Source of the DNA: Microbotryum violaceum
Taxonomy: Eukaryota
NCBI GenBank assembly: GCA_001244265.2
Contig: CDLV01000006.1
Coordinates: 1,426,001 to 1,490,000, forward strand
Length of the DNA: 64,000 bases
Reading direction: 5' to 3'
Position numbers and translations under genes: made by a program. Positions 3,330 to 50,470 of the stretch are shown in pieces; positions within the stretch are counted from its first letter, which is position 1, and each line of letters opens with the position of its first letter. The notes beneath the pieces are model-generated. The model was not told the origin of the DNA and searched no databases. It saw only the letters and a program-made list of their open reading frames with translations.

Positions 3330-4787
<1,458 letters not shown>

Positions 4788-10324: not shown

Positions 10325-10884
10325 ACCGACAGAGCGCGCTGAACGACCGGAAGTGAGGCGAATCTGCGAAGGCGACCGTTGGCGAAGAGTCAGTCAACCG
10401 CGATCGGGCGGAGGGGGGGAACCAAAGGACGTATTGTAATCCGTTCAATCCAAATGCCATTTTTGAAACTCACATATGAACAATGACCAAGTCGCTATAA
10501 GCGACCGCGGTGATAAGGGGGAGAGGAAGAAGGGGGACTGGCCTCGAGAGGAGAGAGGAGAGCTCGTTCAACTTGGCGCGCCCGGGCTCGGCAACGGCAC
10601 GGTCCGAGCGCGACGACAACCAACGGTCGGAATACTCGGTCCTCGAAACGCCAGGTCATCTTAAATGCCAGGACCGTATTATTGGGAGTACGAACGGTCT
10701 CGAAAGCGCTGAAGAGGAAATACTGCGTCGTGCGGGCTCATTTCTCAATTGAGGGGGTCGAGTCAAGAGCCTCGGCTCGGTTCGAGCACTGGCCAGACTC
10801 TTCAGAGTGTAACCCCGTATACATTCAAGGACATCCTCATATCCTGGGCGCTAACATTTTCATAACCTCGCCTCTCTCTCACAG

Positions 10885-11365
10885 ATTTGAGCCTGTACAA
10901 ATTCTTCCTAAGCAGTCTCTAGGAGGCCAGGGGGTGTCGAGTCAGACCTACTCTCCTCCAGCCCAGGTGACCCTAGACTTTCTGCCTCCGAGCGGCCACA
11001 ACAAGTTCGTCCACGACACGCAGTCCCAAGTGCACACCGGCATAGCGACCCTCTCGAGGCGAAACCCCGATGGACAAATCGGGCTGCAATTCGTTTGCTC
11101 CTGTAAGTCGGTCGTTCGCGCCCATGACGGCGCCGGGCCACCAGCGGACAAATAAATCGTGAGAGCGATGATGACGAAATAGATGGCGATTGTGGTGAGT
11201 CCAGCACGGATCGCGAGGATGGATACGCTTCTCAGGACCTCATTGCGTTAGCTGGTGCGACTTCCTTGGCCGAGCTGGTGAATCTGTCGTTGAAGCTCGT
11301 CGAAGACTTTGGTGGGCGTGCTCTCGACAGATCTTGACATCTTGATGAGAATATACTGTATGTGA
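10885..11365 (+). pseudogene. Possible decayed fungal-type protein kinase (FunK1-like) fragment
   Basis: 3' splice signal (CTAAC...CAG) followed by broken frames containing TSLAELVNLSLKLVE and LDR..LDENILY, resembling the FunK1 S..EL...HRDIS..NIL region. Stops and frameshifts present. Confidence 0.25.
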
Positions 11366-13238: not shown

Positions 13239-14890
13239 CTAGAACGGCACCCACTTGGTCTTCCCTATCAGGATGAACGACTCGTAAGATGCAGAGTCGC
13301 GAGGTAGTTCGGGATCAAACGTCATGAGCTCGGCCCATTGTTGCAGCAGCCTTCGCCAGTAGCAATCGACCGACGCAGGCGAGAGGTAGTGGCGGAAGAA
13401 GTTGTACGACGTATCGGCGATCTGCTCGGCGCGGTCGTCGTTCTCGATGAGCCATTGCATCGTCGCAGGTAGTTCGTCAAAGTTGTGACCCGGCGATAAA
13501 ACGATGTTCTGGTCTGGAGAGTTCATATTCGAATTGAATAGGTGGTGGAAGTGCTGGATATACTTCAACCTGTGCGTGACGAAGACGGAGCGACACTTCA
13601 GCAACTGCTTCCCTCGGCCCGAGTATGCGAATCCTTCGACGTGTCCCAAGTACTTGAAGGCACAGTGCTCTTCCGGAGCGAGCACCTCTTTCTCTATCGT
13701 GGACTTGTCCCCCCACTCAAGATCCGAGACTGCACCCCACTTGTACTTGCGCGCAATATCCCACAGCTCCTTGCGAATATCGACCATGAAGGCGCCTTTC
13801 CAGAATAGCTTGGGGACCTTGTCTGCCCACTTGATCCTCTGTTCGTACTGCTTGCATTTGTCCGCAACCTCAACCATGCCGCCAACTCCAGGTTCAGGCC
13901 AGGAGAAGAAACCAAAGTCGGGCATGAGCGTCAATTGAGGCTCCTTCTCTCGACGACCGAGGGCCCACGCTGCGCCTGCTGGCATGCCCGTGTCGCCGGT
14001 TTGCACGACGAACTCGACATCAGGGAGCGGCTCGAGGGAACCGATCATGGCGTCGCGGATTGATGCAAGCACAGCTTTAGTTCGTGTGCCTTGCTGTTCA
14101 TCTGAATAGCTCTTGACGTAGAGCTGTGAAGAGGGTAATGGACGAAAATTTGAGCGTTAGGCCAGCAGATGGTGCCGATCGTAGTTTTCCGGATATCTCA
14201 TGAGCACAGACATACCCTGTTGTTCTTTATCAAGACTCGAGCCTGACTCTTTTTTTCTGCCTCATCAAGATGCTTGAGGGTCACTCCCCCCTCCTTCTTC
14301 CAGTATGCAACGGCGCGATCGATTTCGAGATAGAGGCCGGGGAAGACATTGTCGCACTGAGCCTGTGTCAGATGTCGGTCATGGCCAGCCTCGTACCCTT
14401 CTGCAGCTTCCCTCCAGCTTTTGCCCTTGTTCTGCTCGAGGGTGCAGATCTCACTTAAGGCGGTCAAATTGGACTTGGGTGCACAAGCGTACGGGTTGAG
14501 CGTCTCGGGCAAGGGCACAGGCCTCGGCACGGGCTCCGGCGGCGGTTCTCGGCTGGCCATGCGCAGGACGGCCACGACAAGCAGGATTGTGGTCAAGGGT
14601 GAGATGAAGAGCCAGACTTGCACGAGACGAGAGCGAGGTGTGGGTGAAGTGTTCAAGGCCCCCCACGGCCCCCACAGTCCGATGGGTGATCGGCCATGAG
14701 TCAAAGCAGTCGGGGCGGTGATGCCCGTCACGCTGCCGCCATTGTTCAACGAGCGATAGGTCGCTCCGGCGAACGTCATCTCGGCCTCGTGGTCGGTCGA
14801 GCCTTTACTTCCGACCACAGGTGAGCCAGGTAGACTTGATGCGAGGGTTGAGAGTTGGTCGGTGATAGTCCGTCGCACGCGGTGAAACAT
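13239..14890 (-). CDS. Glycosyltransferase family 90 (CAP10/Cxt1-like), type II membrane protein
   Basis: TM anchor WLFISPLTTILLVVAVL; LPDVEFV, LMPDFGFFSWPEP, EEHCAFKYL.HVEGFAYSGR, A++IA..S..FFR.YLSPA..CYWRRL. Confidence 0.85.
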
Positions 14891-15510
14891 GGCGTCAGCT
14901 CGACAAGTGGTGATGTCGTCGTCGTGAAGTCGACTTCAGCCGGAGCCCGCTTGCCCGGCCTCGTTAACGCCGTTCGGGCCAGGGTGAGATGAGGTGGTCA
15001 CTGGTATAAGAAGCGCTATGGAGTGTCTCTAGTGAAAACAAAGGTCTGCGCTGTGAGGGCGACGTAGGCCTCAGTTCGGGTGTATCTGTCGTGTGGTGTG
15101 CCTCGTCAAAGTGTTGCGCTGAGGGAGATTGCTCACGAAGCTCGCAGGAAAGCCCCAAGGTCACGCGCGGTCAGCTTACTTGGGTGTAATTTGGGGTAGC
15201 TTGTGGTTTGGCGTCCGTGGCAGTTCGTGGCCGTCGATCGATCGCGACGGCCACTATGAACAAATTTCTGTGTTTCTAGAGGTCTTTCGAGATTCTGTAA
15301 CAACACAAAGTGGTTATGTTTGTTTCGTACGTTTGTGTTCTTTGGGTCTTCGTCTCATTAACGTAACCCATTAGCGTGCTCTCTACGCGCGGCTTCAGCT
15401 GCCGCCAGCTAGCCGACAAGGCGATCATGAGATTGGACAATGCAAAATACATTACAAGAAAGGACAGAGGACATAACTAAATGAGATCGGAGGTGCACCG
15501 TCAAGATCGC

Positions 15511-16861
15511 TTACGCGGTATCCTGACCGGCCACGAACGAAAAGTGAACCTCCTTTCCAGTCAACTTTCGGTAGACCGACGAGAAGGTCTCGAGCTTGTA
15601 CTCGAGAGAGGTGGCATCGCGTTGGTCAAGGAATCTGTCAAGAGTCGGACGTCGTAATGATCAGACAAAGTGTTCGAACATCACGGTTCGAACCAGGTCA
15701 AATGTCGCTTACACCTTGATCAACTTCGAGCCGTCGACGTTTTGCCTCGTCCTCTTTCCGGTCACCTCCTGCACAAGAGTCAGAAGAGGGACGGGACGAA
15801 CACCGAGAAATAAGTACCTTATATGTCAAGGTGATACCGCAATCCACTCTCTCAATCAAGAGGGAGCTTCACATCGCTGTATCCAACCTTTCCTCTTGAT
15901 GCTTCATCGTGCTCGTTCCCCGAGGGGTGTGTGGGAGCGAGCGATGCTTCCGCGGGGCCACTGATGTGACTACCGAACAGTGGGGGGCGGAGACAATGAT
16001 AGTATCGGGGAAGTGTGGTAAAAAAAACCTACCGTGGGGTAGACAAGATCGTCGAGGATGGCCGAGTGGACCTCCTTGAGTGTGCGCGAGCGAGGGCGCA
16101 TCTGCTTTTGACGGGAACCGCGGGTAGGCTTGCGCATCATTCGTCGCTGTCCGATGAACACGACATGGCGTTCCGAAAACTTCTTCTCGAGCTCGCGAGT
16201 CAAACTATGGTCGGGCAAAAGCGAGGGTCAGGCTCGAAGCCGAGAGAAAAGGACCGCATCGCTTGAACGCGCATTGACTTACCGGCCCTGGATCTTGTGG
16301 AACGCCTTGAGCTGAGTCATGGGCACAAAGATGACGATAGCCTTGCGACCACCCTTGATGTCCACCTCTCGAGCCGCCGAAATTTGCAAAGGTCGCAGCT
16401 CGGCCTTGAGCTCGGCGACGCCGTTCTCGAGGTCGAGCAGAGCTTGGGCGACCGAGGTCTCGAGCGCGTCAGGGGCGGTGCGGGGGGCGTTGGCGCTTCG
16501 GAGAATCTTGCTGGCAGACTGGTATTGGGGTAGTAAGACGGTTCATCAGTATCATCAAATCATTGTGGTTCGAGGCTGAGCAGGGCGTTGTGATAGACAA
16601 CAAGGGGTGATGAGAACGCGCACGCAGACGCATAGCACACGAAAACCTCATGCCGGCAAATGATGGCGCATTGCAAATAATTGCAGATGTATGCCGCCAT
16701 GCATGTACCTCCTAGCCTGCCCAGAGAGCACGCGGGCACCACCAGGCGGGGCATTGAACTTTTTTACCTGGGCCTACGCCGTGCGATGTGTCCTTGCTCG
16801 CGTCGCGTCCCGACTGCCAGGCACAGAACGTCGGATGCGGTGTCTGGGGAAGACTCACCAT
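15511..16861 (-). CDS. RPS7: 40S ribosomal protein S7 (eS7), 5 exons, first exon is the ATG only
   Basis: [75 protein letters not shown]. Confidence 0.97.
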
Positions 16862-17125
16862 TATGATTGGTTGTTGGGTGGCCGGGTCGAGTGGAAGCAC
16901 GGGATAGTAGGATCGCAGAGATGTGTTTCGAGGTGAGGTGAGGTATGAGACAGGCCGCGAGCGCTTGTGAGCCTGGGAGGGCTGGCTCATGATGGCGCAA
17001 GATCAAATTCCGTTTCGAGTTCGAGTGTTAGTAATCAGCCTTGTAATGGTGAAATCGACCGAATACCTGCGGTGAAGCCCCCTTCTTCGGCAAGGTACCG
17101 CTCTCTTGTCTCGAGGTTCATCAAT

Positions 17126-17127
<2 letters not shown>

Positions 17128-17161
<34 letters not shown>
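17128..17161. repeat. Poly(T) tract, about 34 nt, upstream of RPS7
   Basis: Directly visible homopolymer about 270 bp upstream of the RPS7 ATG; possible poly(dA:dT) promoter element. Confidence 0.8.
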
Positions 17162-17162
<1 letters not shown>

Positions 17163-17530
17163 ACCTCTACTACTTCAATGGCTGCAATGACTCCTGATCA
17201 ATTCTGTGCTCGAAATGCCTTGAGCCCGCACTGCAGCGAGTAAACCCTGCAAAACATCCTGGACGCGCTCAGAGGCTATATAACAGACTGTCTATCTTTT
17301 TATCACCTCAAAATAGACGAAATGTTAAAAAAGCAGCTGGCAACACTTTACGTGCACACTGTACACCTTCTGCAGCGGCTCGGCGGCTATGGGCTGCGCT
17401 CGGACCGCCTCTCTGTGGCCTTAGGGGTCTGTGCGAGTCCTTTGTCATTCGGACTTGTCATTCGGACTTGTCGACGATCGATGGGGTCGCGCCCTGGCTA
17501 CTTCACTGTCCGGCCATCACCGACACCCAC

Positions 17531-18407
17531 TATGTATATGCTACGAATAGCCCGCTCTGGTGATATACCAGTTTCTACACACCCAGACGAAATGCTCGAC
17601 AAAACCTCCTTTCGGATCGGCAACGCAGGCGCAGTGGGGCCCAAGTGGACGACGGCCTCGTCCGAGTCGGCGTCGGGGAGTGATCACCTCGGGAATACCC
17701 TCAGCAACGCAGAAACGACCCCCAAGCCAGTCCCAACACGACTTCAGAGTTTTCTCAACCTTCTCAACAGGCCGACCAAACAGTCCTTTCCCTTGACAAT
17801 TGACATCCCCTCGAGCAGCCCGATGCGCCCTGCCTCGGTGCCGTCGACGCCGGCGTCGATCTACGATCGGTTTGCCCAAACTGCATCGGAGGATCAACAC
17901 GGATCGACGAACCGGGAGCCGACGAGCTTTCTCGACGAAGACGACGAGCCAAGTTACCTTTGCCGTAACAAATGGTCCCTCGAAGAACATGGAATACATT
18001 CGACGTCACCAACATCTGTGCACGACGAAGCTTCAGATAGCGTGTCGAACTATTCGACCGACCTCGAAAGCAAAATTGTGGCGTCCACGACGTCGCAGGC
18101 ATCATCGAAGTCGACTTCAACCCGATTCGAGCGCAACTCTGAGTCGAATGTCCAAAAAAGCACCGACGGCCGTGGTGGTACCAAAAATGATTCCTTTCCA
18201 GGGTGCGATGTGAAACAAAACGATGAGGGTTTACCGCATCCGACGGATCATCATTGCGAATCTTCGAATTATCAGTGGGATGCACGATCCCTCGTGCTGC
18301 TTAGGGTGCTTTTAAGGACAGGAAGGTGTCAGGTAGACAGCTCGACACAGGTGAGTCGGAGTTGCCCAGCCTGGGAAGTACCTACCTGTGTCACGGAACT
18401 TGTGTAA
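17531..18407 (+). CDS. Hypothetical Ser-rich protein (structure uncertain)
   Basis: Long low-complexity ORF (17322-18407) with splice-like signals downstream; no recognisable domain. Confidence 0.35.
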
Positions 18408-19217
18408 ACCAACGACACCCAAAACCACCCTTTGATCTTCAAAAAGAACAATGCCCATTTCAAATTTTGTGTTTCACTGACGTGATGCACTCGTATTATA
18501 TACACAGGAACTGCGGAACGCGCAAGAAGCGATTGATCGCATAGTCGGAATCCGAAATCGAAGCTCAGGTGACGGTGAGTTCGTGTAACAGCTGATCGGA
18601 GTCCCAGTCCTCTACAAATGTGCCGGCTAGGAAGCTGCGTGAAGCCCCCCGAAGATGCTTGTCATCCTCTCGGTTCCGACGCCTCGATCCCTTTTCATCG
18701 TTAATGTTTCCCTAGGGGAGTGTCAGTGCCGGAGCGTGCCGGGGCCGGCAACCGCTTGCGCTCTCGGAGCTGAGCTCGGTTGATCGAGCAGGAGCCGGAG
18801 GAAGGCTCGCCCCGAAGGGAAGGATCTGCGCAGGCGGCGCGCGCGTGGAACCTGCGCGCTGGGCGCGGGTCACGTCTCTTCCATTTCCGGCGTAATCTTC
18901 AGAATCTTCACCCCAGAACGGGACCCCTTGCGCACGATCAGTCTGGTGCGATTCACCCCGATCCAAATGCCGAAGGTGGACGCAAGCGCAACCGCGACAA
19001 ACAAGCTCTCGAGGTTCCCCAATTGCCTTCGTTAGCTGGGCTCCGCGGACTTGACTGCCCCTGAACTTTCACGTTCCTTGAGGCGCAAGCGAACCCCGTC
19101 GCTCGATACTGCTTCGGTCCCTGCTTCTGACCTTCCAATTGGCTCCGTCGGATTCTCTCTAGCCTGCGTCTTTCCACTTCCTGTCGATACGACAAGGTCA
19201 CCGCTTTTCTTGTCGCC

Positions 19218-22200
19218 ATGGATCCGAGGCTGACACAGCACTCTTCCTTCTCTTCTTCCCACTTCTCGGCATCGACGAATCGGTCGTCCCGTGGCTCGCG
19301 CTCGTCTTTGGCGTCATCGTCGGCGGCTTCCTACGACACTGACGGTACCTCTCCGGATTCGTCGCCACGGTTTCTAAAATCACCCATACCCACTATCTCT
19401 CAATCACGCTCGAATGGCCATCATAAACGAACCTCTGTACAATCTCTGCCTGCTGGACGTGGGAACGGCTTGTTCGTCGACACTGCTGCGCCGACCGTGC
19501 CTTTCCCAACCGTCTCGTCGGCGTCGGGCTTTGGCTCCTCACGACGGGCCTCGGCTCCTCCCAATCCTCTCAAATCGGTCTCCCTGTCGCTTCGCCGCGA
19601 ACGGCCAATGCTTGAAACACGGGGACCGAAAATCTTCCCGTCGCGCAAGCCTCCTCCGCTCTCAGATCTACGCAGGACGTCTTCTTCGAACAAAAGAAAA
19701 TCACCCTCCGCTGTCTCTCTGAATGCTTTCGGCCGGCTCGGCCCCGCCACCTCGCCACCGTCTCCCTCTCGCACGGCATCCTCCTCGTCCGAGTCCCACT
19801 TGTCAACGGTCGAGCAGCGAACGAACCTCGCGGCCTACCTCGACAAAACCGCCGAGGCCATGGAAGGCGGCAAGTCTCTTGCGATGGCCCACGAGGAGCT
19901 ACGGACAATTAATGGATCTCGACGGCCGTCGGGGGATTTCCAAGCCGCGTTCGAAGCGCAGGAGGCACAAAAAGCCGCGGAACAGCAGAACAAGCGGGCC
20001 GAGAAACGAAGACGTACCATCAAGGAGCTATGTGATACCGAACGAGTGTACGCGAGCGACCTGGCCGTCTTGCGCGACATCTTCCTCACGCGGGCCCGCG
20101 GTGCCGAGATGAGTTCAATCGCCGACCACGTCATGGCCTCGGGTCTCGGATTGGTTCGACTCGGTGAGGACGAGGAGGAGTCACCATCTTTCAACGCGAT
20201 CTGGGCTCGTACTCCTCGAAGTCCCCAGACCTCGTTCACTCGAAATTCGGTATTGGCCAAGCTCGAGCGTCGCCGCCAAGATTCGACGGTGCAGGCGCTC
20301 GAGTACGTCGAGGACGCGGTCATGTCGTCGAGGGACATCTACACCATATTCATCAATCTCGAAGAAATTTCGGATCTCGCGGAAAGGTTTTCTGCAGCTT
20401 TGGATGCTGCGCAAGGCATTGACAGCCAAGATGCCCAGGATGACAGGATCGGCGAAGTCTTTGTCGACATGGTAGGTCCACAAAGCAACAAGGGGGATGA
20501 GATGGTAAGCTGACTTGTGGTTCCCTTTGCTTGACATAGCTTCCTCGCATAAAACAAGTTTACTCGACCTACTGTGCCCGCCACCACCGGGCCATCATTC
20601 GCCTCCAAGAACTCGGGTCCACGCTGCACACTTATTTCTCCGAGTGCCGCGCGCTCAGCCACGGCCGCACGAGCGCTTGGGACCTCGCGAGCTTGCTCAT
20701 CAAGCCAGTACAACGTTGCCTCAAGTACCCTCTTCTGCTCGAAGAGATCCTTGCCGTGACACCAACGGAACACCCGGATCGACCTTCACTCGTCGCCGCG
20801 CTCAAAATGATGCTCTTGACGGCGGAACACATCAACGACTACAAGAAGCGCACCGACAAGGTCGAGAATGTCCTCGCTTCCAAGCGCCAGGGTTCTCACT
20901 CCCACAGCCGGGATACGTCTTTTTCCTTGCACAAGAAATTGCTCCGGTCTGCTCCCAAGACCAAGCCCACGGGCAACGTCGCGGACCAGAACAAGTTGTT
21001 CGATACGCTCGCCGCGCTCGTCGACACGACTAGGGCTGGGGTGCTGCGCTTCTCAGCCGAAATGAAAGATTGGTCACGCAGGACTCAGAAAGCTCTGGAG
21101 GCCCAAGTCACGATGGTCTCCGGTTGGATCGACCTTTACGCTCCAATTGGTGACGAGATGTACCCGCATCCTTCTCACCGCCGCTTGGAGGTCTTCCTCG
21201 ACGATGTGCTCGTACCACTCATCGAAGGCCCCTTCCGCGAGCTCGACCACGAGATTCGCCGCTCGCTCGTGTCCAAGACCGATCACCTCTTGTCCTTGTT
21301 CGAGAACCCACTCCAGGTGATCAAGAAGCGAAACGAGCACAAGGCCGAACATCGCCGTTATATGACGCGGAAGATGCCCCAAGACCAACGTGGATCGGAG
21401 GATTTCGTTACGCTGACGACGCAGTTACTCGAGGAGTTGCCCAGGTTCTTGGCGAGCGTGAGCAAGTACTTCAACATCGTCGTTTCGGCGTTCACAAACG
21501 TTCAGCACATTTACCAGGATAGTGTTAGGGAGCGATGGGAGGCATACGCCGATGAGTGGTTGACGCAGATCCCCAAGGGTGACTATGCGGCGATTGATGC
21601 CGCCTTCCAAGATGCGAGTCGGGATGTGACGCAGATGCTCGCCTCCATCGTCAAAGGACTCAAACTGTCCGTAGCCAGTAAGCCGCTCCAGTTCTCTTCT
21701 CTCACCGAGTCGAATACAAACCGATCGTTTAATCGTGTTGTCAACTTTTCAGCCGCTGGCACGATCCAACGTCGTTCGCAGAGTACGCGAAGGCATCAGG
21801 GGCGTGACTCTCTTTATTCGACGAGCAGTTCCTCGTCTAACACGACGCCAGTCATGTCTGCTCGAGGCCGATTCAACGGAGCCGAAGAAGCAAACCACTT
21901 CGAGGACTATTCCATCACCTCTTCGCTCCAGCGACGCTCTTCAGGCCACGGTGACAACGGGAGCATGCCTTCTTCACCTTCGACGGGTCGACCTTGCTTG
22001 CGTCGACATGAAGCATCCTCGACTTTACGTCGGAACAAACGAGCCTCGGAAGCTTTACCGCCTTTACCTCCCTTGCCTCCAACTTCGAGCAGTCTCATCT
22101 CGAACTACTTTGACAACGTATCAGAGGACGAAGATCCTGATGAACAAGACGGGGATTCGATGCATCACATCTTGTACCGAGCCGAAGCGATCGCTTCAGC

Positions 22201-28893: not shown

Positions 28894-31800
28894 ATGTCGG
28901 GCCATCCCCCCTCAGCTGGGTCAGCCGGAGGACCGGCTCCGACACTTCAGGACCCATTCCAATCCTCGTCCTCGTCCTCGTCCTCGTCTGCGAACCACAC
29001 CACTCGCATCGCGTCAACTTCTTCGGTCGGATCTTCGGCTTCGTCTTCGGTCGCTATGAGCTCGAGCAGGAGTCGTGGAGCGGCAGGGGGAGCACCTGCT
29101 TCGACGAGTGGTAGTGCGAGGGGGCCGATCAGGGTACGTGTTCTGGCGCTCAAGCGAGAGTGACGACGACATTAGATTACTTGGCCTCGACGACCGCACA
29201 TCACACTCGGCCATGACCTGAACTGATCATCGCGAGCTACTAACAACGCACACCGCTCTTCTGACCTGCAGCCATCGGGAACCTCTGCTGTGCCCACATC
29301 GCACATGGACAGCACCAGTCAGTGCTCTCTCTCTCCCGGCTTGATCACCGGCACCGCGCTCCTGAGCCCCACCACCCAAAGCTAAGTCTAATTCTAATCC
29401 TTCTCCTCTCCTCCATCTCATGCGCTCTCACCAAAAAATGGAACAGTCACGCGCTTACTCGTCGCCACTAAACAACTACTCGAGGGTGAGCATAGTAACT
29501 CTCTCTCCAGTGGGTTCATGGCCCGAGGCATGCAAGTACTGACGGACTCGCAAACAGGTCTGGCGAGATGGGCCCGAGGCGATCTGAGCGAGGATGCCAT
29601 CAGCGAGATCTACGTCAAGTTGGGCAACGATTTCAACCTCGCTGTCGCCGCTTTTGCAAAGGAGAATATCGGCATGAGGTGAGCGCCGCATACGGGAATC
29701 CACGGTCGAGACGATACCAAGAGCTGACACCCATGTAGCGCGGCCGCCATAGTGAACTGCTTTCGGTCCCCGGCGATCTGAGGATATGTCTCGAGACATG
29801 CTTGTCCGAAGAACCCTCGCAGGCGACGCTCGAGCGTCATCTCCCCAAAGTACGCCAGATCATCATTGGTCTACTGCACGGGCTCAGGGAGAAGCAGAGG
29901 TTGTATAGGGACAATTCGGCCGCGAGGAGGGTGCGCGAGACGCAGGAGAGGGAGCAGGCTAGAGCGAAGCAATTGGCTCAGCTTCAACAGGCGCAGAAAC
30001 AACAGCAACAGGCGAATGCGCCGGCTTCCGGAGGAGGAGGATCACCGCCGACGGGATCGGGAGCTGGACCTTCCGATCGAGGGAGCACTTACTCCGTCGC
30101 TTCGTCGACGGGCTCATCCTCTGCAACTGGCCATCCATCGACCCGATCTTTGATCGGCAAGGAACCGCTAAGTCCTGATAGCGCCACGAGGTCCAGGGAC
30201 GATCTGAGGAGGTTCGTCAGTCAGGCGCAGCAACAGCACCCACCACCGACGGCGTCGACCAGTCAGAGTCTACCGGGGACGAGGAGTACGTCACCTTTGC
30301 CACCGCCTTTACCTGGGATGGCTCTACCGGCACTGCCATCGACTTCCGGTTCGAGATCGAGACCCTCGCTCGAGTCGCAAGCATCGCTTTCAAATGACGA
30401 TCTCCCGAGAGACGGCACGAGACAGAGCGCGATCCCGCTCGTCACAGCCTCGCCGAAGATGGTCAAATCGAATAGCAATGAGCGCGACTCTTACGGTACG
30501 AGTGAGGCCGAGTTTGGCACCCTGCCTTCGGTATTACCATCATCAGATTTCAGGAAACTGAGCTCGAGTGGGAGTCTACGTCGAAGGAGTTCGGAACGAT
30601 TGAGGGCTCATTCGCCACCGCCTCCGCCGAGGGATAAGGGGCCGATGCCTTTGCCCCTGACGCCGACGCACAATACGAGCCCAATCAACGACTTTCCTAC
30701 CTCACCACGAACGTCCTTCCCCGACCCGACGAACGGGTTGACCTCGGCGCCTCCTTCGGTTCCAGTTCATTATCGACGCCCCAGCGCCGCAATCTTGGCT
30801 GCCGCAGCGGCCGAACCACCCCCTCCCCCACCGGCGGGTACGATGGCGCACATGCAGTCGCTCGAAGCGTTGAGGCAGTCCGACAACCTCTCTCGGAGGG
30901 CCAGTCGAAGGTTCTCGGCCTATGCGATTCAGAAGATCACGACGGGCTCGGGGTCGCCCGGTCGATCGCCGGGTGAGAGGAGGATCATTTCCGGTCCGTC
31001 GCCGATGGGAGCTGGGAGTGGAGGCGGAGGAAGCGGGGATCCTGGAGATGGTGGATCGTCGCTTCCTCGTAGTGCTTCGGCTGGGAGAGAGCTGGCGATC
31101 GCGGATGAACGAGGTGGGATGAGACGTGGTGGGCCCACCAACAACTCGATGACGGCACCGGCCCGGAAAGCCAAGAGTGAGTTCCGACCGACGAGAGGTG
31201 GGACGACCGTCACATCCCCTTTGGCGCAAAGGGAGACGGCGGAGATCGCGACCATTGCGGAGGAGGGAACGGGTGGCAGTCGGGAGGGATCACCGAGTGC
31301 CAGTTCGTCGTCGCCGAGTCGGAATGGAGTTGCGAACCGAACAGGTTCGATGAGGATGCCCCCTCCGACGGCGGACTTGCCTGCTACTCCTTCTTCGTCG
31401 TCGACATTCACTCCGTCGATAGCTGAAGGAGCCGAACCCACCTCTGTCGGCCCCGTTCGCAACGCAAGCACCTTGACGACCGTCTCGACGGACAGTGACT
31501 CGCACGACTACCCTCTCACCGTCTTCCTCCAAATCGGTCGAGAAGTCAAAAAGGCGCGCTTGGTCGAAGAACCGACGATCGCGTCGCTCAAACTCGTCTT
31601 TGTCGAACGATTCCAGTACAACCCCGGGGCAAACGATTTTCCCGCTATTTATGTGAGAGATGGGGAGTTTGGGATTAGTTACGAGTTGGAAGATATGAAG
31701 GATGTGAGGAATGGGAGTGTGTTGAGTCTGAACATCGATAGTGAGTGTTGGGGTCCTAGTGGATCAGGGATTGCTTCCGTGTAGTTGACTGATGTCCTTT

Positions 31801-33120
31801 CCGCCTATTCCCGAAGCCGTCGAACAAGTCAAGCAACACATCGACCAAGGCTTGTTGACTCTCTCGCAGGACATCAAGGAACTGCGATCAACCATGACGG
31901 CGATGCGACGCGTCTCGAGCCACGCCGGCATGTTCAGCCCCGAACTAGCGACGCCTGCCGCGGCGCAGACCCTGCCCGAACCGAGCGAGCAGCAGTACCA
32001 GGATGCGGCGCAGAAGGTCTTGCGCATGCGACGGCTCGGCTCGATCCCCAACATGGCTGCTAGTGCGAACGCGGACAAAGCTTCGCCTAGCGATCCCAAT
32101 ACGCCCAAGCCTTCGCAGGCCAGTACTTCGAGCGTTGGTGCTCCACCCCTGCCCGCTGCTCCAAAAGGCTCCCCTACTCTTTCAACGAGCTCCAAGATGG
32201 GTGGTGGTGGTGGTAAAGGAGCACTCGACGCGAACCAAGTCGTCGAGACGCTCCGGACGCAACACAAACAAGTGCAAGACCTACGCCGCGAACTCGGCGT
32301 CCTACGCCAAGTCTATAGCGATTTCGGGCACCACACCAAACACATCTTCGCGGCGATGAAGGTCGAGACCTCGCGCGTGCACAAACTCGCTTCGACGAGC
32401 AAAGTCGGCAAGTCGAGAACTTTCGTCGAAGCGGGCGTACAAAAGTTGGATGCGGACGTTTCCGAATTGGTCGTGAAGGTGGACGAGATTTCGGATTCGA
32501 TTGAGTTGATGCGAGCGGATGTCGTGCGAGGCGTTCGACCTCGGCCTGGGTACCTTAGTGAGACGGCGTTGACGTTGAAGAAGATCGTTGAACAGAGGGA
32601 TGCCGTCGCGGAAAAGTTGGGAACGACCAAGCCGACGTGGGCGCATACCTGGTCCGAGGAATTGGCCAAGGTGTTGGGCGAGCAAGAGACGGTGCAGAAG
32701 CACGAATCGATGTTAGTTGATCTGTGCGATGACCTCAACGACGTCAAGGACGTTTTGAAGAACATTGAGGCCGTCGCCAAATCAACGAAGAAGCTGCATC
32801 GGACCAAGAGTCGGCATCGTCTTGCGGGCAGTGGCGATGATGGTACGGAAGGGAACGACCTCGATCCCGGTCAGTCCTTGTCGAACGTCTTGCTCGAGGT
32901 CAAGCATCTCCAACCCGACGCGAACAGACGCTTGGAAGCGATCGCGAGAGCGGAGAAACAACGCGAGATCGACAATGCGAATAGGACGGACGAGTTCGCG
33001 GACGAGTTGGAAGAGTTTGTACAGAGGGGCAAGTTGAAAAAGAGTGGTGGGGTTGAGGAGGCGGAGAGGTTGAGGCAGGCGAGGAGTGAAGCGACGCTCA
33101 AGGCTATGTTTGCTGGTTAA
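28894..33120 (+). CDS. BUD6: Bud site selection protein 6 / actin-interacting protein Aip3
   Basis: VTRLLVATKQLLE, CLSEEPSQATLERHLPKVRQIII.LLHGL, L.RRASRRFSAY, VFLQIGREVKK, YELED, QVQDLRRELGVLRQVY, KLKKSGGVEEAERLRQ. Confidence 0.92.
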
Positions 33121-44319: not shown

Positions 44320-47221
44320 TTAATTAAATAAAAACCTGCCGGACGACCGAACGGAGACCGCTCTGCCAGGCTCCGTTGTGTCAGCGCCAGGCGTCGACTC
44401 GGCGCAGAGGGGTCACAGTTGAATGTGGAAACACAGATATCGCATATGTGTCGGGAGCTGTCACAGCTGACCCTGCGCCTTGCGCAAGCTCGGCCGCGGT
44501 GGGAGGCGAGCGCATCGTCTTCGGGATGATGGACACAAGTTGCCAGTGGCGGAGACGCTCGACGCCGATCAGGCTGAGGGTGCGAGGACCATCCACATCG
44601 AATATCTCGTACAGCCCCCGAACGTCCATGGCAACTGGGAAGACATCGACCAACGAAAGCAATTGCTTCTCCTTCAGCGCCGTTACACCTAGCTCAACTT
44701 GAAAACACACAACTTCGCCGGCGCGCTGTGAATTGTCGGCCTCCATTGACATCTGTGGATCCCAGATTCGCTGTCAAGAATATATCCGCTGACATCAGAT
44801 GTGATGAGTTGATTTGGTGGTACTTACTCGCACAAATCTAGCCGTCTTGCAGTTGACGGTGCCTTGCGTATTTCGCATCTCGTTACCGGATCCGAGCAAC
44901 GTGACCGCTGATGCATCTGCACCCTCGAGGCGCCGCCATCCTTCATCGAGCGAGCTGCCGAAGTCCATCGCATAGATGGTTCTTGGTGTAGTCGTTTGCT
45001 TTCGACCCCAGAGAGGTATCGACGTGACACTGCCTCCGTGGAAGACTGCGACCTCTTCGGTCAAGTCGACAAAATTTTTGCGAAGGGCTGGCGCCGTTTT
45101 CTTGAGCCTGTGTAGCTTGTAGCCCAGCAGCTGGGCATGCAAGGCATGATCCCTCGGCGAAATGTCCCGGAGCTCTTTCATTATAGGTATGTCCTTCTTG
45201 AGTCGAAGGATTATCATCATGAACCGCATCTCCGCCGAATTCATGCCAGACTCGACGGGGTTTGACTTGCTTCTCGTCCTCCCTTTGCTGTAACCCATCA
45301 TCGTCTCCGTTCCGCAAGCCGAGTAATCACGAAGCGGGCCCATTTTTTCATAACATCGGGACCGTGCATAAGACGATGATTCGTGGCAGGGAACAGATGA
45401 AGAAACTCGGGATCTCGATCATACAGAAGCTCCTCGCGCAGTAGCAGCGTCTGTTCGAGGAGGAGAACATAGAGGTAGGTGTATGTGATGGAAACCTCGC
45501 CCCTTTCATCGAGCTCGTACAGACGAAGCTGTTCGAGCTGGTCCACGTCCGGTAGGCGATCGAGAAAGTCAACGGAATCGTGTCTTCATCGCCGCAAACA
45601 TTCAAGTTCGACTGAGATCCCCGTGCCACGACGCCGCAGCGATTCGAGCTTGGTCGGGTGTCGTTCCATTGCTTCAACCACCCGACGGTAGTAATTGTAG
45701 TTGCGCTCGTCATCCAGTCGAACCTCTTGCCCACCAGGGGTTTGGAATGTCGTGGCGGTGTCGACAAGCCCAGCCCACTCGGGATGGTCGAGCACCAATA
45801 CGATCACTCCCTCGTCGTTTTCGAACGCTTTCGCATGGGGAACACAGAACGGCAGATAGACTTTGGTGTTTCCAGGTGCGTAATGAAATATGCTGATGAT
45901 CGAGCAGATCAAGCACGAAGCGAGGCCTCTTGCTCCCACGAGGTTTCCAAGGGCTGCTTGCTCCAGGGGGCAGGGTCATGGGTATCACCCAAGAGATGTG
46001 GGCGTTGACCTTGCGATTGGCGTTGGAGTGCGCGAGCACTTCGGTTCCGTTGGAGAAGGTTGCAATAGGGATGTTATCCGGCTTGAGATCGCCATTTGCG
46101 TAAAGCGTCGGTGCGTGTAAGCCGTCGACCCATTGCCTCACGACCGGGTAAGAGCCCGAGCCACCTGACGCCTTGTGCGTCGACCACCTCGTCGCTCGGC
46201 TTGATTGGCGAGGGTAGGGCTGATTACTGGGTGTGCACGAAGCACGTTAACAAAATAGGCAGGGTCATAAGAGCGCTGCGTTGACCGTTCGGTCTTCTCA
46301 CCATTCTTGCCCAGCGTGAAACGTTTCTCGCGGCACCCGGGCGTTGGACACTCCTCAGGGTCTTGGAGTCGTTTGGCGCCATAGGAGACGTGACCTTTGG
46401 GGCACTTCCCGACCTCCACAGTTCTGAAGCTGGTGAGATGTCGTATCGTTCGGACCATTTTGTACTCGGACATTCGCTGAGGTCGGCGTCGTGGCAGGTG
46501 TAGGTGCGCAGCAATATGAAGAGCTCAGTCCAAGCGTCCCTCGAAAGCGAATGGTCCCGCTTACATGTAGAGTTGTAGCTTTGCAAGGTCATGGGGCGGA
46601 AGCGCAACTTTTTTTTTTTTTTTTGTAGAAACTGTTCATCATATTGCCCCCAATTCGTGTTCCCCCTATTTGGCCTACGGAAAAAACTAGATGGAAGTCG
46701 ACGATGATAACACAAACCGCCCGCAAGATGCGAGAAACGGGCCGGTGTCCACCAATCCGATACTTGGGATTCAAGTGCCCGAGCCAAGCGGTTGCTCCCC
46801 CCAGGAGACGAATGAGAGAGAGAAGATGAGAGAGAGAAGAAGAGAGAGAGAGAAAGAGAAAGAGTACAAAAATAATTGACTAACGACAAGAGACCCACCC
46901 CGCACCCACTTCCCAACTCGGTCGAGACAAAGACTGGAGAGCGACTGCGCAGCTACCCTGACCCGCGAAGTCCCAAGTCTATGCTCGGTCACAACAAGAC
47001 GCGGTGGAGGCCCCTCAAAACCTCCACCTCAGCAGTCCCTGGCCCCTCAAAGCCGACTTTCTGCCTGTGTCTGCTGATCCCTCCCTTGACTCAGAACCCG
47101 GAAGCCAAAGAGCGCGAGTCACCGTCGAGTCAATCTCAAATCGCGAGCCGGTCCATGAGCAACGAAGGCAGACCTGTAATAGATGAAAGATGAAAGCAAG
47201 ATATTTAGTATACAGTTTTTT

Positions 47222-49069
47222 GTTGGAAGATGAAGCGTGATGGTGTGTGTGTGTGTGGGGTGTGGTGGGGGGGAATCGAACCCAGCCTCTACTGCCCTCG
47301 CCCGCCCCTTGCTCCTCCCGCCCTCAACTTCATCCTCTCCTTCAGTACCACCCTCCTCCTCTCCACGCTTTCCATCCTCGTCCCGTGCTTCTGCATCCTC
47401 CATCTCCCACTGCTGATCATCTCCAAAACCATCCCCGTGAAGATCTCGATCGTCCAGCCCGCCCCTTCCTGTTCGCTGAGCTTGGCCTTGAGCTTGGGGA
47501 GGCCAAAGAGCCGTTGCAGTGTCGTGTACTGGTCGTCCTCGATCGTGTCGCACCCGAGTGCGTCGCAGAGCACGCACCTTGCCGCGATCCAGACATTCCG
47601 CGAGTCAACGCAGCCGAAAAAGTAGTGGTCGGTGTCGTCCACCGGCGCTTCGCAGACGAGGCACGCGGGAGAAGTGTCGTGATTATGTTGGTGTTGCAGC
47701 TTGCGCGTCGGGGTGAAGCGGAGAATCAGCTTGAACCAAACTTCCCTCTCCCTCGCCGTCAGTGCCTTCGAGTTGACCGCCTTCCAAAAGCTCCTGAGGT
47801 CGTCCGGCTGCGGTGGTCCCTTGAGCCCGAGCGTGTTGGTAAAGGCCTTCGCGTTCAGGACCCGGCGGATGCGACGGATGGTGTACGGTCGAGCCATGTT
47901 CAGCAGCTTGTACTGGCTCGCCTGCTGTGGAAGCACCGGGTCCGGAAGGCGCTGCTCCATTGCGAAGCGGGCCACGGGCTTGGGGAGAATCGCCTCGAGC
48001 GGTGCGCTGGTGCCGATCCGGGGAGGCACGTTGAGCCGTCCTGCCGCCACCGCCACCGCCAAGGGCATGTTCTTGTGTCGATCGAAAGTGAACCGGTACC
48101 AGGCCGCGATTGCCAGTCGCTGCGGGAGCCCGCGTCGATCGTACTCGCTGTTGTCGCCGAGCACATCCGCCGGCGGCGTCCAAAGGTGAAAACCCCCACC
48201 CGCATACAACTCGCGCCGGTAGAGATCCGCCACCTTCGGGTAGCCCTGGAGACGAAGGTAGTCAGGTATATGAACCGCGTCGATGGTCTGTCTCCCTCTG
48301 ATGGGGGTGTGGAGGCTGCCGAGCAAGGTGGGAAGCGCGAGCAGGTTCGCGGTGGTCAAGGTCCTCGGGTTGACCTGCGCGTCTTGCTGTTTCGGAACCC
48401 GCAATGCTGCTCGCCATCGGGGATGGAGGTCGCTGGGGATGGGAGTGGATGGATGTGGCCAGAGATCGGTGGCCAGGTCGAGGTCGGGCTGAGCTCGGTG
48501 GAGTGCCGAGAAGAACGTCCCAGATCCGTGCCGCAACCGCGTCCACGACGTCCTGCATCCTGATCACCCCGAGTCCCCCCTTGAGCTTGGCTGTGAACAC
48601 GATATCTCTGCCGTAGCTGGTCCTGCCCTTGCCCCCACGGACGAAATCGACGAGCATGTCATCGAGCTTCTTGACGACTTCGGGCGGCGGGATGTCGGCT
48701 GCAAGGAAGTGCAGGATCTTGGGGATGGCGTACCGATTGACGTAAAAGGCACGGGTGTGGTGTGTGAGCCAGCGATGCTGAACCCCTTCCAGCGTCGCCT
48801 CGAGGCGTTCGATGAGATTCGCGTAGGCGAGTTCGGTATCGCCGCTCGGGTCGAAGGGGAGGCCGATCCACTCGAGCGACTCGCCTGCGGCCTTGACGAC
48901 GAGCGGGCGTTGCCCCGGGTCCCAGCGGCGTCCGATCGGTAGGACGACCGTCTTGTCCGTGTTGAGCCGGCCATTCGTTGCATGCCTACAGTCGAGCGCC
49001 AGGTCATCGAGCAAGTTGAGTGACCCCAAGCTCGCGACGGCGACGACAACGTCATCGGCAAAACCCGGT
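47222..49069 (-). mobile_element. 5'-truncated L1/Tx1-like non-LTR retrotransposon (RT C-terminal half plus CCHC finger)
   Basis: Begins at FADDVVV; LNTDKT, KLKGGLG, CLVCEAPVDDTDHYFFGC. One frameshift near 48505. 8-bp TSD AGTTTTTT at 47214-47221 and 49070-49077. Confidence 0.9.
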
Positions 49070-49265
49070 AGTTTTTTAGTTTTTTTTGACTGGGGCTTAT
49101 AAATTGCAATCCTTCGGGTTGGCTGGGACCGCTACAAAAAGAGCTAAAGGAGGTTATAAAGCAACGACGGCAAGCAGTTGGGTGAAAGTCGAATTTACTG
49201 CGTCAGCCGTCGTGTTTGTGTCAAACTGTGGTGAAGGTTTTAGTAGACATTGCACTGATATCGGG

Positions 49266-49338
49266 GGCCCGATAGCTTAGTAGGTTAAAGCATTTCCAAT
49301 TAATGGAAGCGACCCAGGTTCGACTCCTGGTCCAGCCG
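49266..49338 (+). tRNA. tRNA-like gene/pseudo-tRNA, formal anticodon TTA
   Basis: A box TAGCTTAGTAGG; D stem GCTT/AAGC; anticodon stem TTTCC/GGAAG with loop AATTAAT; T stem CCAGG/CCTGG with TTCGACT; acceptor 5/7 paired; TTTT just downstream (49347-49350). Lacks U33. Confidence 0.7.
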
Positions 49339-50333
49339 CTCTCATCTTTTGTTGATCATTTTCGGAATCATCGTTGATCCCAACAAACTGGACCACTTGA
49401 AGGACAGCAAGACTTTGAATCACCTTCGGCATCAAGCTCGGCGAGATGAGCTTCAGGCGCGGCAATCTCATCTTCAGTGGGCTCGGGCTCATCTTCCCCC
49501 CCTTAAACATCCTCTTCCTGCCCCGCGCCTCCCAGCTCGCTCTCATCACTTTGGGTTTCACCCGCACGGGAGTCCGCGTCACTGCTATCTCCGTCATCAT
49601 CACGTTCCTCCTGCTCTTCCGAGCCCCATTCGAGTTCCAGATCGTCGAGCTCCTTCGGACCGCGCGTATCCTCTTCGTCTACGACCATCTCTTCTCCCTC
49701 GTCATCTGCGGCTTCATTCAGGTTTTCTTGAAGATCGTCTTCGTCGCCGTTTTCGTCCGCCCCTCCGCGCCGAATTCTCGATCCATATCATCGGCGTTAT
49801 CGTCATCGACCGCCATTGGGATCGCGTGACCGACTGCTGCCGGCAAAAGACGCCCCCGAAGGTCAGAATGGAGAATGGCCAAGATGAGTGAAGTCGTTGA
49901 CGGACCTGGTGTAGCCCCCTTTCGCTTCCAGCACTTGGCTAGTTCTTTCCCGCCTGCGCCTGGCCGTAGCTGTTTAACGTCCTTTTTGAGATGCGCTGCC
50001 CAGGTTCTTCTTGTAAGCCAGACTCCAGACTTAGACCGGCACACTAAGCAGACGCAGTACCTCCATTCATTGTAGTGTGCTTTGTCGTGCTCGGGCAGTT
50101 CGACAAGACCGCCCAACGGACGTGTGTCTGCGAGCTTCTTCTGGACGCGGTTGATTTGTGCTTGCTCGATCTGCTGTCTCCACTGCGCACCTAGGTCTGG
50201 TTCGACTCTGCTGTGAGACACGACAAAAACAGTGTGTGACTGACGCCTTGGAAGAGGGGATATGGCCTCACAACCGTAGGGAGAGAAAGAGGGGGCGGAA
50301 AAGCACCCAGTAGCCACCGCTGAAGGTGCTCGT

Positions 50334-50470
50334 TGTGAGGATCTATTATAGAACCTTTCATGTAAAATCTTTCCAATGACGCTGCACAAAGTTACCGGAG
50401 CTGCCGCAGAAGCTTGACACAGAGTCATTGGAAAGATTTTACATGAAAGGTTCTATAATAGATCTTCACA
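50334..50470. repeat. 137-bp fold-back (47-bp arms, 1 mismatch, 43-bp loop)
   Basis: 50334-50380 is the reverse complement of 50424-50470. Confidence 0.9.

What the first reader, a model, noticed from the sequence alone, without database searches (positions are those of the whole stretch)
46608..49350. Mobile noncoding insert carrying a terminal tRNA-like Pol III cassette with formal UUA (ochre-reading) anticodon
Seen: an insert splits the CACTA transposase, which reads DDSENDQQK|LRFRPM in frame once the insert is removed. It has CTTTT repeats at both ends and a 16-nt T run at one end. At its other end (49266-49338) is a near-complete cloverleaf with consensus A and B boxes, three intact stems and a TTTT terminator supplied by the flanking repeat. 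The anticodon position reads TTA, but position 33 is A rather than U and two acceptor pairs mismatch. If the T run is a poly(A) tail, the tRNA is antisense at the element's 5' end, the reverse of a canonical tRNA-SINE. Inference: an undescribed non-autonomous element family, either a LINE-mobilised retrocopy, a Helentron/DINE-like element (T-rich ends, internal microsatellite) or a TG...CA solo LTR (46624-49344). It may spread a Pol III/TFIIIC module, possibly as a chromatin barrier or small-RNA source; nonsense suppression is possible but less likely.
Basis: partly seen in the sequence, partly recalled or inferred. Interest (0 to 1): 0.78.

Follow-up and report, generated by a model that had tools for sequence, protein, structure and literature searches.

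The report
Antisense tRNA-like head on fungal retroposon
The insert is two ordinary poly(A) retroposons lying head to tail in a Microbotryum transposon gene: a dead LINE fragment and a short multi-copy element whose front end is, oddly, a backwards, decayed tRNA-like sequence rather than a working stop-codon-reading tRNA.

Summary
A 2,733-bp insert (46613-49345) flanked by CTTTT duplications interrupts an otherwise open 238-codon frame. It has a 16-T run at one end and a tRNA-like cloverleaf at the other (49266-49338; Rfam tRNA 46.3 bits; formal anticodon UUA, A33, two acceptor mismatches).

The proposed anatomy does not hold. The "left arm" plus "nested insert" (46613-49063) is one 5'-truncated, dead APE-type LINE copy of Microbotryum: the C-terminal half of the RT, the 3'UTR and an A16 tail. 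Only 49072-49345 is a separate short retroposon. It has its own A-rich tail, on the same minus strand as the LINE.

Logan contigs of four runs show that the tRNA-like part recurs in 7-17 distinct contigs per run. Its summed depth is far above that of the host flanks.

The tRNA-like module lies antisense at the 5' end of this short element. It therefore cannot be the element's own Pol III promoter, and a T5 run sits in the element's sense strand.

My best reading is that a tRNA(-pseudo)gene locus was captured or 5'-transduced, and that LINE machinery amplified it as a passenger. Ochre suppression is very unlikely. The Helitron and solo-LTR readings are rejected. A portable Pol III/TFIIIC role is untested.

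The parts
46608..46612 (.). left copy of the 5-bp target-site duplication CTTTT
   Evidence: identical to 49346-49350
46613..46624 (-). poly(A) tail of the LINE fragment (with the TSD Ts it forms the 16-T run 46609-46624)
46625..47288 (-). LINE 3'UTR. Holds a (GA)n/(CT)n microsatellite around 46813-46875, a (CA)n run around 47240-47258 and a B-box-like 11-mer at 47272-47282
   Evidence: ORF2 stop at 47289. Contigs of other copies bridge 47221 colinearly, and summed depth rises toward the 3' end. B-box match
47289..49063 (-). 5'-truncated LINE ORF2: from just before the RT FADD motif to the C-terminus, including zf-RVT. One frameshift, where other copies carry 34 extra letters at about 48506
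   Evidence: PF13966 26.4 bits, cut-off 27.5; 49 Microbotryum LINE gene models, up to 94% identity; loose end at 49063; table 5c
49064..49071 (.). 8-nt filler between the two retroposons, belonging to neither
   Evidence: LINE copies diverge from the window at 49063; the T-rich tail starts at 49072
49072..49087 (-). A-rich tail (A8 CT A6 on the minus strand) of the short retroposon
   Evidence: Another copy has a different T/G-rich tract before the same body (X15 loose end at 49084). Two joints land at 49080
49088..49190 (-). 3' module of the short retroposon, in the bin with the highest summed depth of the stretch in X1 (second highest in X2). Other copies diverge beyond 49190. Holds a T5 run on the minus strand (49136-49140)
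   Evidence: bin 49007-49173; loose ends at 49190 in X2, X13, X15
49191..49265 (-). 75-nt spacer; on the + strand it lies directly upstream of the tRNA-like sequence
   Evidence: no Rfam match
49266..49338 (+). tRNA-like module with A and B boxes, formal anticodon TTA, A33 and acceptor mismatches 4:69 and 5:68. It is antisense to the retroposed RNA
49339..49345 (-). first 7 nt of the retroposon (minus strand), which is the 3' trailer of the tRNA-like module. Variable in other copies (49339 C>T; T inserted after 49341)
49346..49350 (.). right copy of the target-site duplication CTTTT. It supplies the only T4 run after the tRNA-like module
46224..46607 (-). host ORF downstream of the insertion (LRFRPMTLQ...)
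49351..49678 (-). host ORF upstream of the insertion (...INDDSENDQQK, whose last codons lie in the TSD copy 49346-49350)

Best explanation
The insert is a composite of two poly(A)-type (target-primed) retroposons in the same minus-strand orientation, inside one 5-bp target duplication. It lies in a degenerate, multi-copy Tnp2/CACTA-like gene of a Microbotryum fungus.

Unit 1 (46613-49063) is a dead, 5'-truncated copy of an APE-type LINE. It comprises the C-terminal RT half with a 34-nt deletion, a roughly 660-nt 3'UTR and an A16 tail.

Unit 2 (49072-49345, 274 nt) is a short non-autonomous retroposon with its own A-rich tail. Its 3' part (49088-49190) is shared with an even more abundant repeat. 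Its 5' part (49191-49345) is the reverse complement of a tRNA-like gene together with 75 nt of that gene's upstream flank and 7 nt of its trailer.

Inferred steps:
- An abundant retroposon copy sat head-on upstream of a tRNA(-pseudo)gene.
- A Pol II transcript that started just beyond that gene and ran antisense through it into the retroposon tail was reverse-transcribed by LINE machinery (a 5' transduction or capture).
- The new unit was then amplified.
- The LINE fragment joined it either by inserting into its A-rich tail or by a template switch during one integration event.

On this reading the tRNA-like module is a passenger. It is tRNA-derived and keeps A/B boxes, but it is not a decoding tRNA.
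For: Shown:
- TSD, tails and the restored open frame.
- LINE identity: 49 hits, all Microbotryum gene models; 15 of 49 carry PF03372 and 11 of 49 carry PF13966; 95% identity over 197 aa to P0004.
- Exact 5' truncation at 49063. The loose end of other copies, reverse-complemented and translated by hand, reads PQSRAITSLA, the residues that precede FADD in P0004, P0010 and P0022.
- Contigs of other LINE copies cross 47221 colinearly (table 8).
- Summed depth rises from the RT part (about 1,900-6,600 in X1) to the 3'UTR (5,300-19,700), as expected for a 5'-truncated LINE population.
- Unit 2 is separate. Another copy shows a variable T/G-rich tract before 49084. Joints 46705>49080 and 46750>49080 place the same unit and its tail next to shorter LINE 3' ends at other loci. 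Summed depth in X1 is 20,610 for bin 49007-49173 and 6,010 for 49174-49340, against 440-490 in the right-hand host flank and 390-910 in the left-hand one.
- The tRNA-like part is covered by 7-17 distinct contigs per run in 4 of 4 runs (table 3).
- A junction contig at single-copy depth starts at 49313, which fits a repeat boundary near 49343-49345 (record 6).
- tRNA likeness. Defects: A33, two acceptor mismatches, fold z-score -0.90 (37 of 200 shuffles fold as well) and a 5-nt closed loop in the minimum-energy fold.

Inferred: the capture or transduction origin and the Pol II transcript.
Against: - No genome was available. I could not align the copies, find a source tRNA locus, or see the 5' ends and TSDs of other copies.
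- Depths are sums over contigs and are no copy number. The tables were cut: 408 differences, 257 loose ends, 1,133 pieces and 2 joints were not shown.
- A and B boxes with normal spacing are intact, and no position in 49293-49338 is among the 40 best-supported differences from other copies. That could mean constraint rather than youth.
- A shared 5' end in many copies could also mean an internal promoter rather than one master copy.
- Nested insertion and template switching cannot be told apart.
Confidence: 0.6

Rival explanations
1. The antisense tRNA-like module is a selected, portable Pol III/TFIIIC unit. Each new copy brings A and B boxes, and the T-rich target duplication supplies a terminator. 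The bound factors keep the site open and drive divergent or antisense Pol II initiation of the retroposon itself (a mobile promoter), or act as a barrier or small-RNA source.
For: - A and B boxes are intact and 44 nt apart.
- The retroposon's 5' end lies 7 nt beyond the tRNA-like 3' end, and the TSD gives T4 right there.
- The head recurs in 7-17 contigs per run, and no listed majority difference falls in 49293-49338.
- A family with a common 5' end needs some way of being re-transcribed.
- From recall, not from a call: mouse B2 SINEs are reported to be transcribed by Pol III one way and Pol II the other.
Against: - There is no expression or binding data. No listed run is on record as RNA.
- The A-box pattern alone is not above chance.
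- T4 may be a weak terminator in fungi.
- Conservation cannot be separated from youth with the truncated tables.
- The cloverleaf is no more stable than shuffles.
Confidence: 0.15
2. One non-autonomous element (46613-47221 + 49078-49345) carries a nested LINE fragment.
For: - The joint 47221>49224 with 40 other letters between, in X1 and X2.
- A loose end at 47216 in X1 and X13.
- Both 'arms' have much higher summed depth than the RT interior.
Against: - Contigs of other copies run from ORF2 across 47221 into the 'arm'. X13 record 9 covers 47137-47350 with 2 differences. X2 record 23 covers 47172-47618 at depth 568. X15 record 15 covers 47077-47618.
- A nested LINE would need its own tail and TSD at 47221, and none is there.
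- The right unit has its own A-rich tail at 49072-49087.
- Loose ends at any point of a LINE 3'UTR are expected from 5'-truncated copies.
Confidence: 0.1
3. It is a working ochre-suppressor (UUA) tRNA gene spread by a mobile element.
For: ARAGORN calls tRNA-Stop(tta). Rfam scores 46.3 bits. A and B boxes are present and a T4 run follows.
Against: - A33 in place of the near-universal U33, and acceptor pairs 4:69 and 5:68 broken.
- The minimum-energy fold pairs positions 32 and 38 and leaves a 5-nt loop; z-score -0.90.
- There are many copies per genome, which would be hard to tolerate for a stop-codon reader. This last point is inference.
Confidence: 0.02
4. It is a solo LTR of a tRNA-bearing TRIM (Helenus-like), or a Helitron/Helentron-type element.
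For: - A 5-bp TSD, as reported for fungal Helenus (PMC10886601, passages read).
- 49088-49344 begins TG and ends CA.
- T-rich ends.
Against: - The T-rich tract before the unit recurs in other copies with variable sequence, as a retroposon tail does.
- There is no second LTR, PBS or PPT nearby (no repeat within the window).
- Kojima found no Helenus in Microbotryum (PMC10886601, passage read).
- From recall: Helitrons make no target duplication. The interior is a non-LTR RT.
Confidence: 0.03

Closest known systems
tRNA-derived SINEs (e.g. Mg-SINE of Magnaporthe; AfuSINE2 of Aspergillus fumigatus, PMC5063351, seen as search listing and abstract start only)
   Same: Short (274 nt), non-coding and multi-copy, with an A-rich tail and a target duplication. 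It sits with a LINE that could mobilise it and contains a tRNA-related module with A and B boxes.
   Different: The tRNA-related module is the reverse complement of the retroposed RNA. It therefore cannot be that RNA's internal Pol III promoter. The sense strand also carries a T5 run (49136-49140) that would stop Pol III.
MINE chimeric retroelements (WEIRD-MGL) of Magnaporthe grisea and U6-L1 type chimeras (PMC2104539, abstract and section 5 read)
   Same: A non-coding 5' unit is fused in the same orientation to a 5'-truncated LINE 3' part, and the whole is flanked by one pair of direct repeats. The fusion recurs with different LINE truncation points: here 49063, and 46750 and 46705 in other contigs.
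   Different: An A-rich tail and an 8-nt filler lie between the units, so a later LINE insertion into the tail explains it equally well. The TSD is 5 bp against 10-20 bp in MINE. The 5' unit here also occurs with tails of its own.
Helenus / TRIMp3 (tRNA-like sequence in the LTRs of non-autonomous LTR retrotransposons; PMC10886601, passages read)
   Same: A mobile element spreads a tRNA-like sequence whose promoter boxes are kept while the cloverleaf looks non-functional. The 5-bp TSD matches that of fungal Helenus.
   Different: There are no LTR pair, PBS or PPT, and the architecture is poly(A)-tailed. Helenus was reported absent from Microbotryum.
5' transduction by non-LTR retrotransposons, and the head-on geometry of tRNA-gene-targeted TRE5 elements of Dictyostelium (recalled, not from a call)
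   Same: The 5' end of a truncated retroposon faces the 5' side of a tRNA-type gene at short distance (75 nt). Flanking DNA is carried along as the new 5' end.
   Different: No source locus was seen. Targeting of tRNA genes by the Microbotryum element is not shown.

Membership tests
Functional tRNA gene (ochre suppressor) | Cloverleaf that reaches the Rfam tRNA gathering score | tested here: met
   46.3 bits against 29; ARAGORN call
Functional tRNA gene (ochre suppressor) | U33 and a 7-nt anticodon loop | tested here: not met
   The loop is AAUUAAU with A33. The minimum-energy fold closes it to 5 nt
Functional tRNA gene (ochre suppressor) | Seven paired acceptor positions | tested here: not met
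   4:69 and 5:68 are flagged as non-pairs
Functional tRNA gene (ochre suppressor) | Expressed, processed and charged | not testable with these tools
   No run is on record as RNA
tRNA-derived SINE | tRNA-related region at the 5' end in the sense of the retroposed RNA (internal Pol III promoter) | tested here: not met
   The tRNA-like sequence is on the + strand. Both A-rich tails are on the - strand and so is the variable tail of another copy
tRNA-derived SINE | Short, non-coding, with an A-rich or simple-repeat tail and a TSD | tested here: met
   274 nt; tail at 49072-49087; CTTTT around the composite
tRNA-derived SINE | Dispersed multi-copy family | tested here: met
   7-17 distinct contigs per run over 49286-49339 in 4 of 4 runs. 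There is no second copy in the window
APE-type non-LTR retrotransposon (LINE), 5'-truncated copy | RT with a downstream zinc-binding region; full-length relatives carry an APE endonuclease | tested here: met
   49 homologues, of which 15 carry PF03372 and most carry PF00078. zf-RVT scores 26.4 bits, just under the cut-off of 27.5
APE-type non-LTR retrotransposon (LINE), 5'-truncated copy | Poly(A) tail, TSD and a variable 5' truncation | tested here: met
   A16 and CTTTT. Other copies continue beyond 49063
Helenus / solo LTR | Paired LTRs with PBS and PPT, or a solo LTR whose flanks are unrelated between copies | tested here: not met
   No repeat of the unit in the window. The T-rich tract precedes the unit at several loci
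Helitron/Helentron | No target duplication, a 3' hairpin with a CTRR end, rolling-circle proteins or their remnants (features recalled) | tested here: not met
   A 5-bp duplication is present, and the interior is a LINE RT. The termini were read by eye only
CACTA/Tnp2 transposase (host gene) | Match to Transposase_21 or related Pfam models | tested here: inconclusive
   0 Pfam families for 13 window ORFs and 5 homologues. 0 hits in two homology searches with ORF 49718-50452. The Atlas look-alikes of P0061 are Transposase_21 and Plavaka clusters at 0.92-0.96

The most novel reading that the evidence does not exclude
A new class of LINE-dependent short retroposon whose 5' end is an inverted tRNA gene module. 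The module's A and B boxes recruit TFIIIC/Pol III at every new copy, and the T-rich target duplication provides the terminator. This creates the open site from which the element's own antisense, polyadenylated RNA is started. In effect it would be a portable bidirectional Pol III/Pol II promoter, the mirror image of a canonical tRNA-SINE.
Probability: 0.12. Interest if true: 0.7.

Novelty: new variant of a known kind. Interest (0 to 1): 0.35.

Why it matters
Microbotryum genomes were annotated with no SINEs, and 42% of TE space was 'unknown' (PMC4469406, Table 2 passage read). A short, abundant, LINE-dependent family would fill part of that gap.

It would also matter for TE-accumulation studies on the mating-type chromosomes of these fungi.

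The inverted tRNA-like head is unusual. If it is only a passenger, it is a clean example of 5' capture creating a new retroposon family. If it is functional, it would show a second way in which tRNA promoters can be used by retroposons.

It also warns annotators that tRNA scanners will report 'suppressor tRNA' genes at each copy.

Tried and rejected
- No whole genome is held for the window. A copy census, TSDs of other copies and box/stem covariation could therefore not be done.
- No second copy of any part of the insert lies in the window.
- Two exact-pattern scans of metagenome contigs with window strings from the anticodon/T-arm region gave 0 matches.
- The scan's own earlier notes gave nothing by place, by sequence or by words.
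- No RNA holder is listed among the 24 runs. X15 is only guessed to be RNA, and its depth profile parallels the DNA runs, so nothing can be said on expression.
- No contig showing the empty site was among the listed joints (2 joints were not shown).
- Host identity. Pfam was blank for 13 ORFs. ORF 49718-50452 found nothing among longer proteins or in the 1.84-billion representative library.
- The sigma-70/terminator scan is irrelevant to a fungus.
- The isotype of origin of the tRNA-like sequence could not be determined without the organism's tRNA set.
- Rejected readings: a whole-insert solo LTR (TG...CA at 46624-49344), because those ends would leave non-matching flanks; Helitron; and twin-priming inversion of a sense tRNA-SINE, in which the tRNA would then lie at the other end of the inverted piece.
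- Literature searches for an inverted-tRNA retroposon or a Microbotryum SINE listed none. Supplements were closed and could hold TE libraries that include this family.

Full report
**What is there**

The window is fungal. It holds Bud6/AIP3, RhoGEF and GT90 genes and has about 56% G+C.

- CTTTT at both ends, and a run of 16 T at 46609-46624.
- At the other end, a sequence that ARAGORN calls tRNA-Stop(tta). Rfam's tRNA model scores it at 46.3 bits against a gathering score of 29, E 1e-6, and it is the only Rfam hit in the 64 kb.
- In the Rfam alignment the D, anticodon and T stems pair. The loop is AAUUAAU, so position 33 is A. Acceptor pairs 4:69 and 5:68 are broken.
- The B-box pattern matches at 49317-49327, one of 3 matches in the window against 0.17 expected. 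The A-box pattern matches at 49273-49284, but that pattern alone is not above chance, since 49 of 100 shuffles give a match.
- As RNA the sequence is no more stable than shuffles: z = -0.90, and 37 of 200 shuffles fold as well. The minimum-energy fold pairs positions 32 and 38, leaving a 5-nt loop.

**It is an insertion**

The right flank reads ...INDDSENDQQK up to 49346. The left flank reads LRFRPMTLQ... from 46607. Once the insert and one CTTTT copy are taken out, the two frames join into one that is open for 110 + 128 codons.

The last protein search found ten Microbotryum gene models related to the left flank. One of them (P0055) has tblastn matches on both sides of the insert, at 49766-49416 and 46572-46204 with adjacent residues 133 and 134. 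Two more (P0057, P0061) begin with residues that I matched by eye to the right-flank ORF and continue into the left flank. Paralogous copies therefore lack the insert.

Whether the host gene is a CACTA transposase is not settled:
- Pfam gave nothing for 13 of 13 window ORFs or for 5 of 5 homologues.
- Two searches with ORF 49718-50452 were blank.
- The Atlas look-alikes of P0061 are basidiomycete Transposase_21/Tnp2 clusters (0.96; 12 of 30 hits) and Plavaka clusters. This is a lead only.

**Anatomy**

Read on the minus strand, the insert has three segments:
- 49345-49088, followed by the A-rich tract 49087-49072.
- 8 nt of filler.
- From 49063, an open frame with the RT motif FADD that runs to a stop at 47289, then about 660 nt of non-coding sequence and A16.

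The coding part is a LINE:
- There were 49 hits, all gene models of M. silenes-dioicae, M. saponariae or M. intermedium, at up to 94% identity. Of these, 15 carry the APE endonuclease domain PF03372 and 11 carry zf-RVT.
- The window fragment itself has zf-RVT at 26.4 bits, against a cut-off of 27.5.
- All 119 tblastn matches of these proteins lie in 47102-49098.
- The apparent extension to 49095 is three chance residues. Real identity starts at FADD.

Contigs of other copies leave the window sequence at 49063. Their loose end, reverse-complemented and translated by hand, reads PQSRAITSLA, the residues that precede FADD in P0004, P0010 and P0022. The LINE copy is therefore 5'-truncated exactly at 49063. 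It also lacks 34 letters that other copies have at about 48506, which explains its frameshift (table 5c).

**The 'left arm' is the LINE's 3'UTR**

Three contigs from other copies run colinearly across 47221:
- X13 record 9: 47137-47350, 2 differences.
- X2 record 23: 47172-47618, depth 568.
- X15 record 15: 47077-47618.

Summed depth rises steadily from the RT part to the 3' end, as in any 5'-truncated LINE population. In X1 it is about 1,900-6,600 over 47337-49006 and 5,300-19,700 over 46669-47336. There is no tail or duplication at 47221.

They remain unexplained. A 5'-truncated LINE copy next to unrelated DNA would give the loose end.

**The tRNA-bearing unit**

49072-49345 behaves as a retroposon of its own (all unless stated):
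- Another copy has a different T/G-rich tract in front of the same body (X15 loose end at 49084).
- Two contigs join the tract at 49080 to shorter LINE 3' ends (46750 in X1, 46705 in X2).
- The bin 49007-49173 has the highest summed depth of the stretch in X1 (20,610). In X2 it is second (3,003 against 3,218 for 46669-46835), and in X13 and X15 several LINE bins exceed it.
- The tRNA bin reaches 6,010 in X1. The host flanks are at 390-910 on the left and 440-490 on the right, and single contigs of this locus are at 75-103.
- Other copies diverge beyond 49190 (loose ends in X2, X13, X15). So 49088-49190 is shared with a still more abundant repeat, and 49191-49345 is a head specific to a subfamily.
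- Over the tRNA-like part, 7-17 distinct contigs per run differ from the window at 49286 (T>C), 49292 (A>T) and 49339 (C>T). No position in 49293-49338 is among the 40 best-supported differences.
- A contig at single-copy depth that spans the right junction starts at 49313, consistent with a repeat boundary near 49343-49345.

Caveats:
- Depths are sums over contigs and are not copy numbers.
- The tables were cut.
- All four runs are contigs.
- The best holder may be the sample the window came from.

**Mechanism**

Both tails lie on the minus strand, so the tRNA-like module is antisense and occupies the first 80 nt of the retroposed RNA. It cannot be that RNA's Pol III promoter. The sense strand also carries T5 at 49136-49140.

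I therefore read the head as captured genomic DNA:
- It comprises a tRNA(-pseudo)gene, 75 nt of its upstream flank and 7 nt of its trailer.
- It was transcribed antisense into an adjacent truncated retroposon, then reverse-transcribed and amplified by LINE machinery (inference).

The LINE fragment then either inserted into the A-rich tail, or the composite arose by a template switch in one event, as proposed for the WEIRD-MGL 'MINE' chimeras of Magnaporthe (PMC2104539, abstract and section 5 read). The single CTTTT duplication fits both routes.

The alternative that the boxes are kept because they recruit Pol III/TFIIIC and help start the antisense RNA is open. I give it about 0.12-0.15.

A decoding ochre suppressor is very unlikely, given A33, the broken acceptor stem, the closed loop and the many copies.

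**Comparison and novelty**

Perlin et al. list 0 SINE copies and 41.6% 'unknown' TE space in M. lychnidis-dioicae (PMC4469406, Table 2 passage). Kojima found no tRNA-bearing TRIM (Helenus) in Microbotryum (PMC10886601, passage). A TE study of the genus mentions neither SINE, CACTA nor tRNA in its main text (PMC10502011, term counts). Four full-text searches listed no retroposon with an inverted tRNA head. Supplements were closed.

The composite insert itself is ordinary. The short family is a new variant of the LINE-dependent non-autonomous retroposon: it fails the defining SINE feature of a sense tRNA head but works like one in every other tested respect.

**Verdict**

- Observation: confirmed.
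- Interpretation: partly supported.
- Interest: modest (0.35). It would be higher only if the head proves to be a functional promoter module.

Noticed in passing
window 47272-47282 (-): A perfect B-box-like 11-mer (GGTTCGATTCC) lies in the sense strand of the LINE, 7 nt after the ORF2 stop. It is followed by a C-rich run and (CA)n. No tRNA is called there. It may be chance, since a third match lies inside a coding ORF at 7698-7708, or a tRNA-derived scrap in the LINE 3'UTR.
   Followed up: partly
window 47221 / 49224: One contig each in X1 and X2 joins 47221 to 49224 with the same 40 other letters between (tables 5 and 5c).
   Followed up: no
window about 44387-46607 and 49351-50452 (-): The host is a multi-copy, degenerate Microbotryum-specific gene with many stops and frame changes. 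Related gene models of 326-875 aa in three Microbotryum species have no Pfam domain, but they resemble Tnp2/Plavaka transposases in the Atlas.
   Followed up: partly
window 46813-46875: The (GA)n/(CT)n microsatellite inside the LINE 3'UTR differs between copies. Loose ends at 46802 appear in three runs (X1, X2 and X15), and there is a 113-nt skip in X15.
   Followed up: no
window about 48506: Other LINE copies carry 34 extra letters here, nearly identical across the four runs (table 5c). Their absence in the window copy causes the ORF2 frameshift between ORFs 48262-49131 and 47289-48563.
   Followed up: partly
window 29739-33120 (+): The Bud6/AIP3 homologue is split into two adjacent open frames, with AIP3 profile positions 1-72 in the first and 72-406 in the second. 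This is probably a short intron.
   Followed up: no
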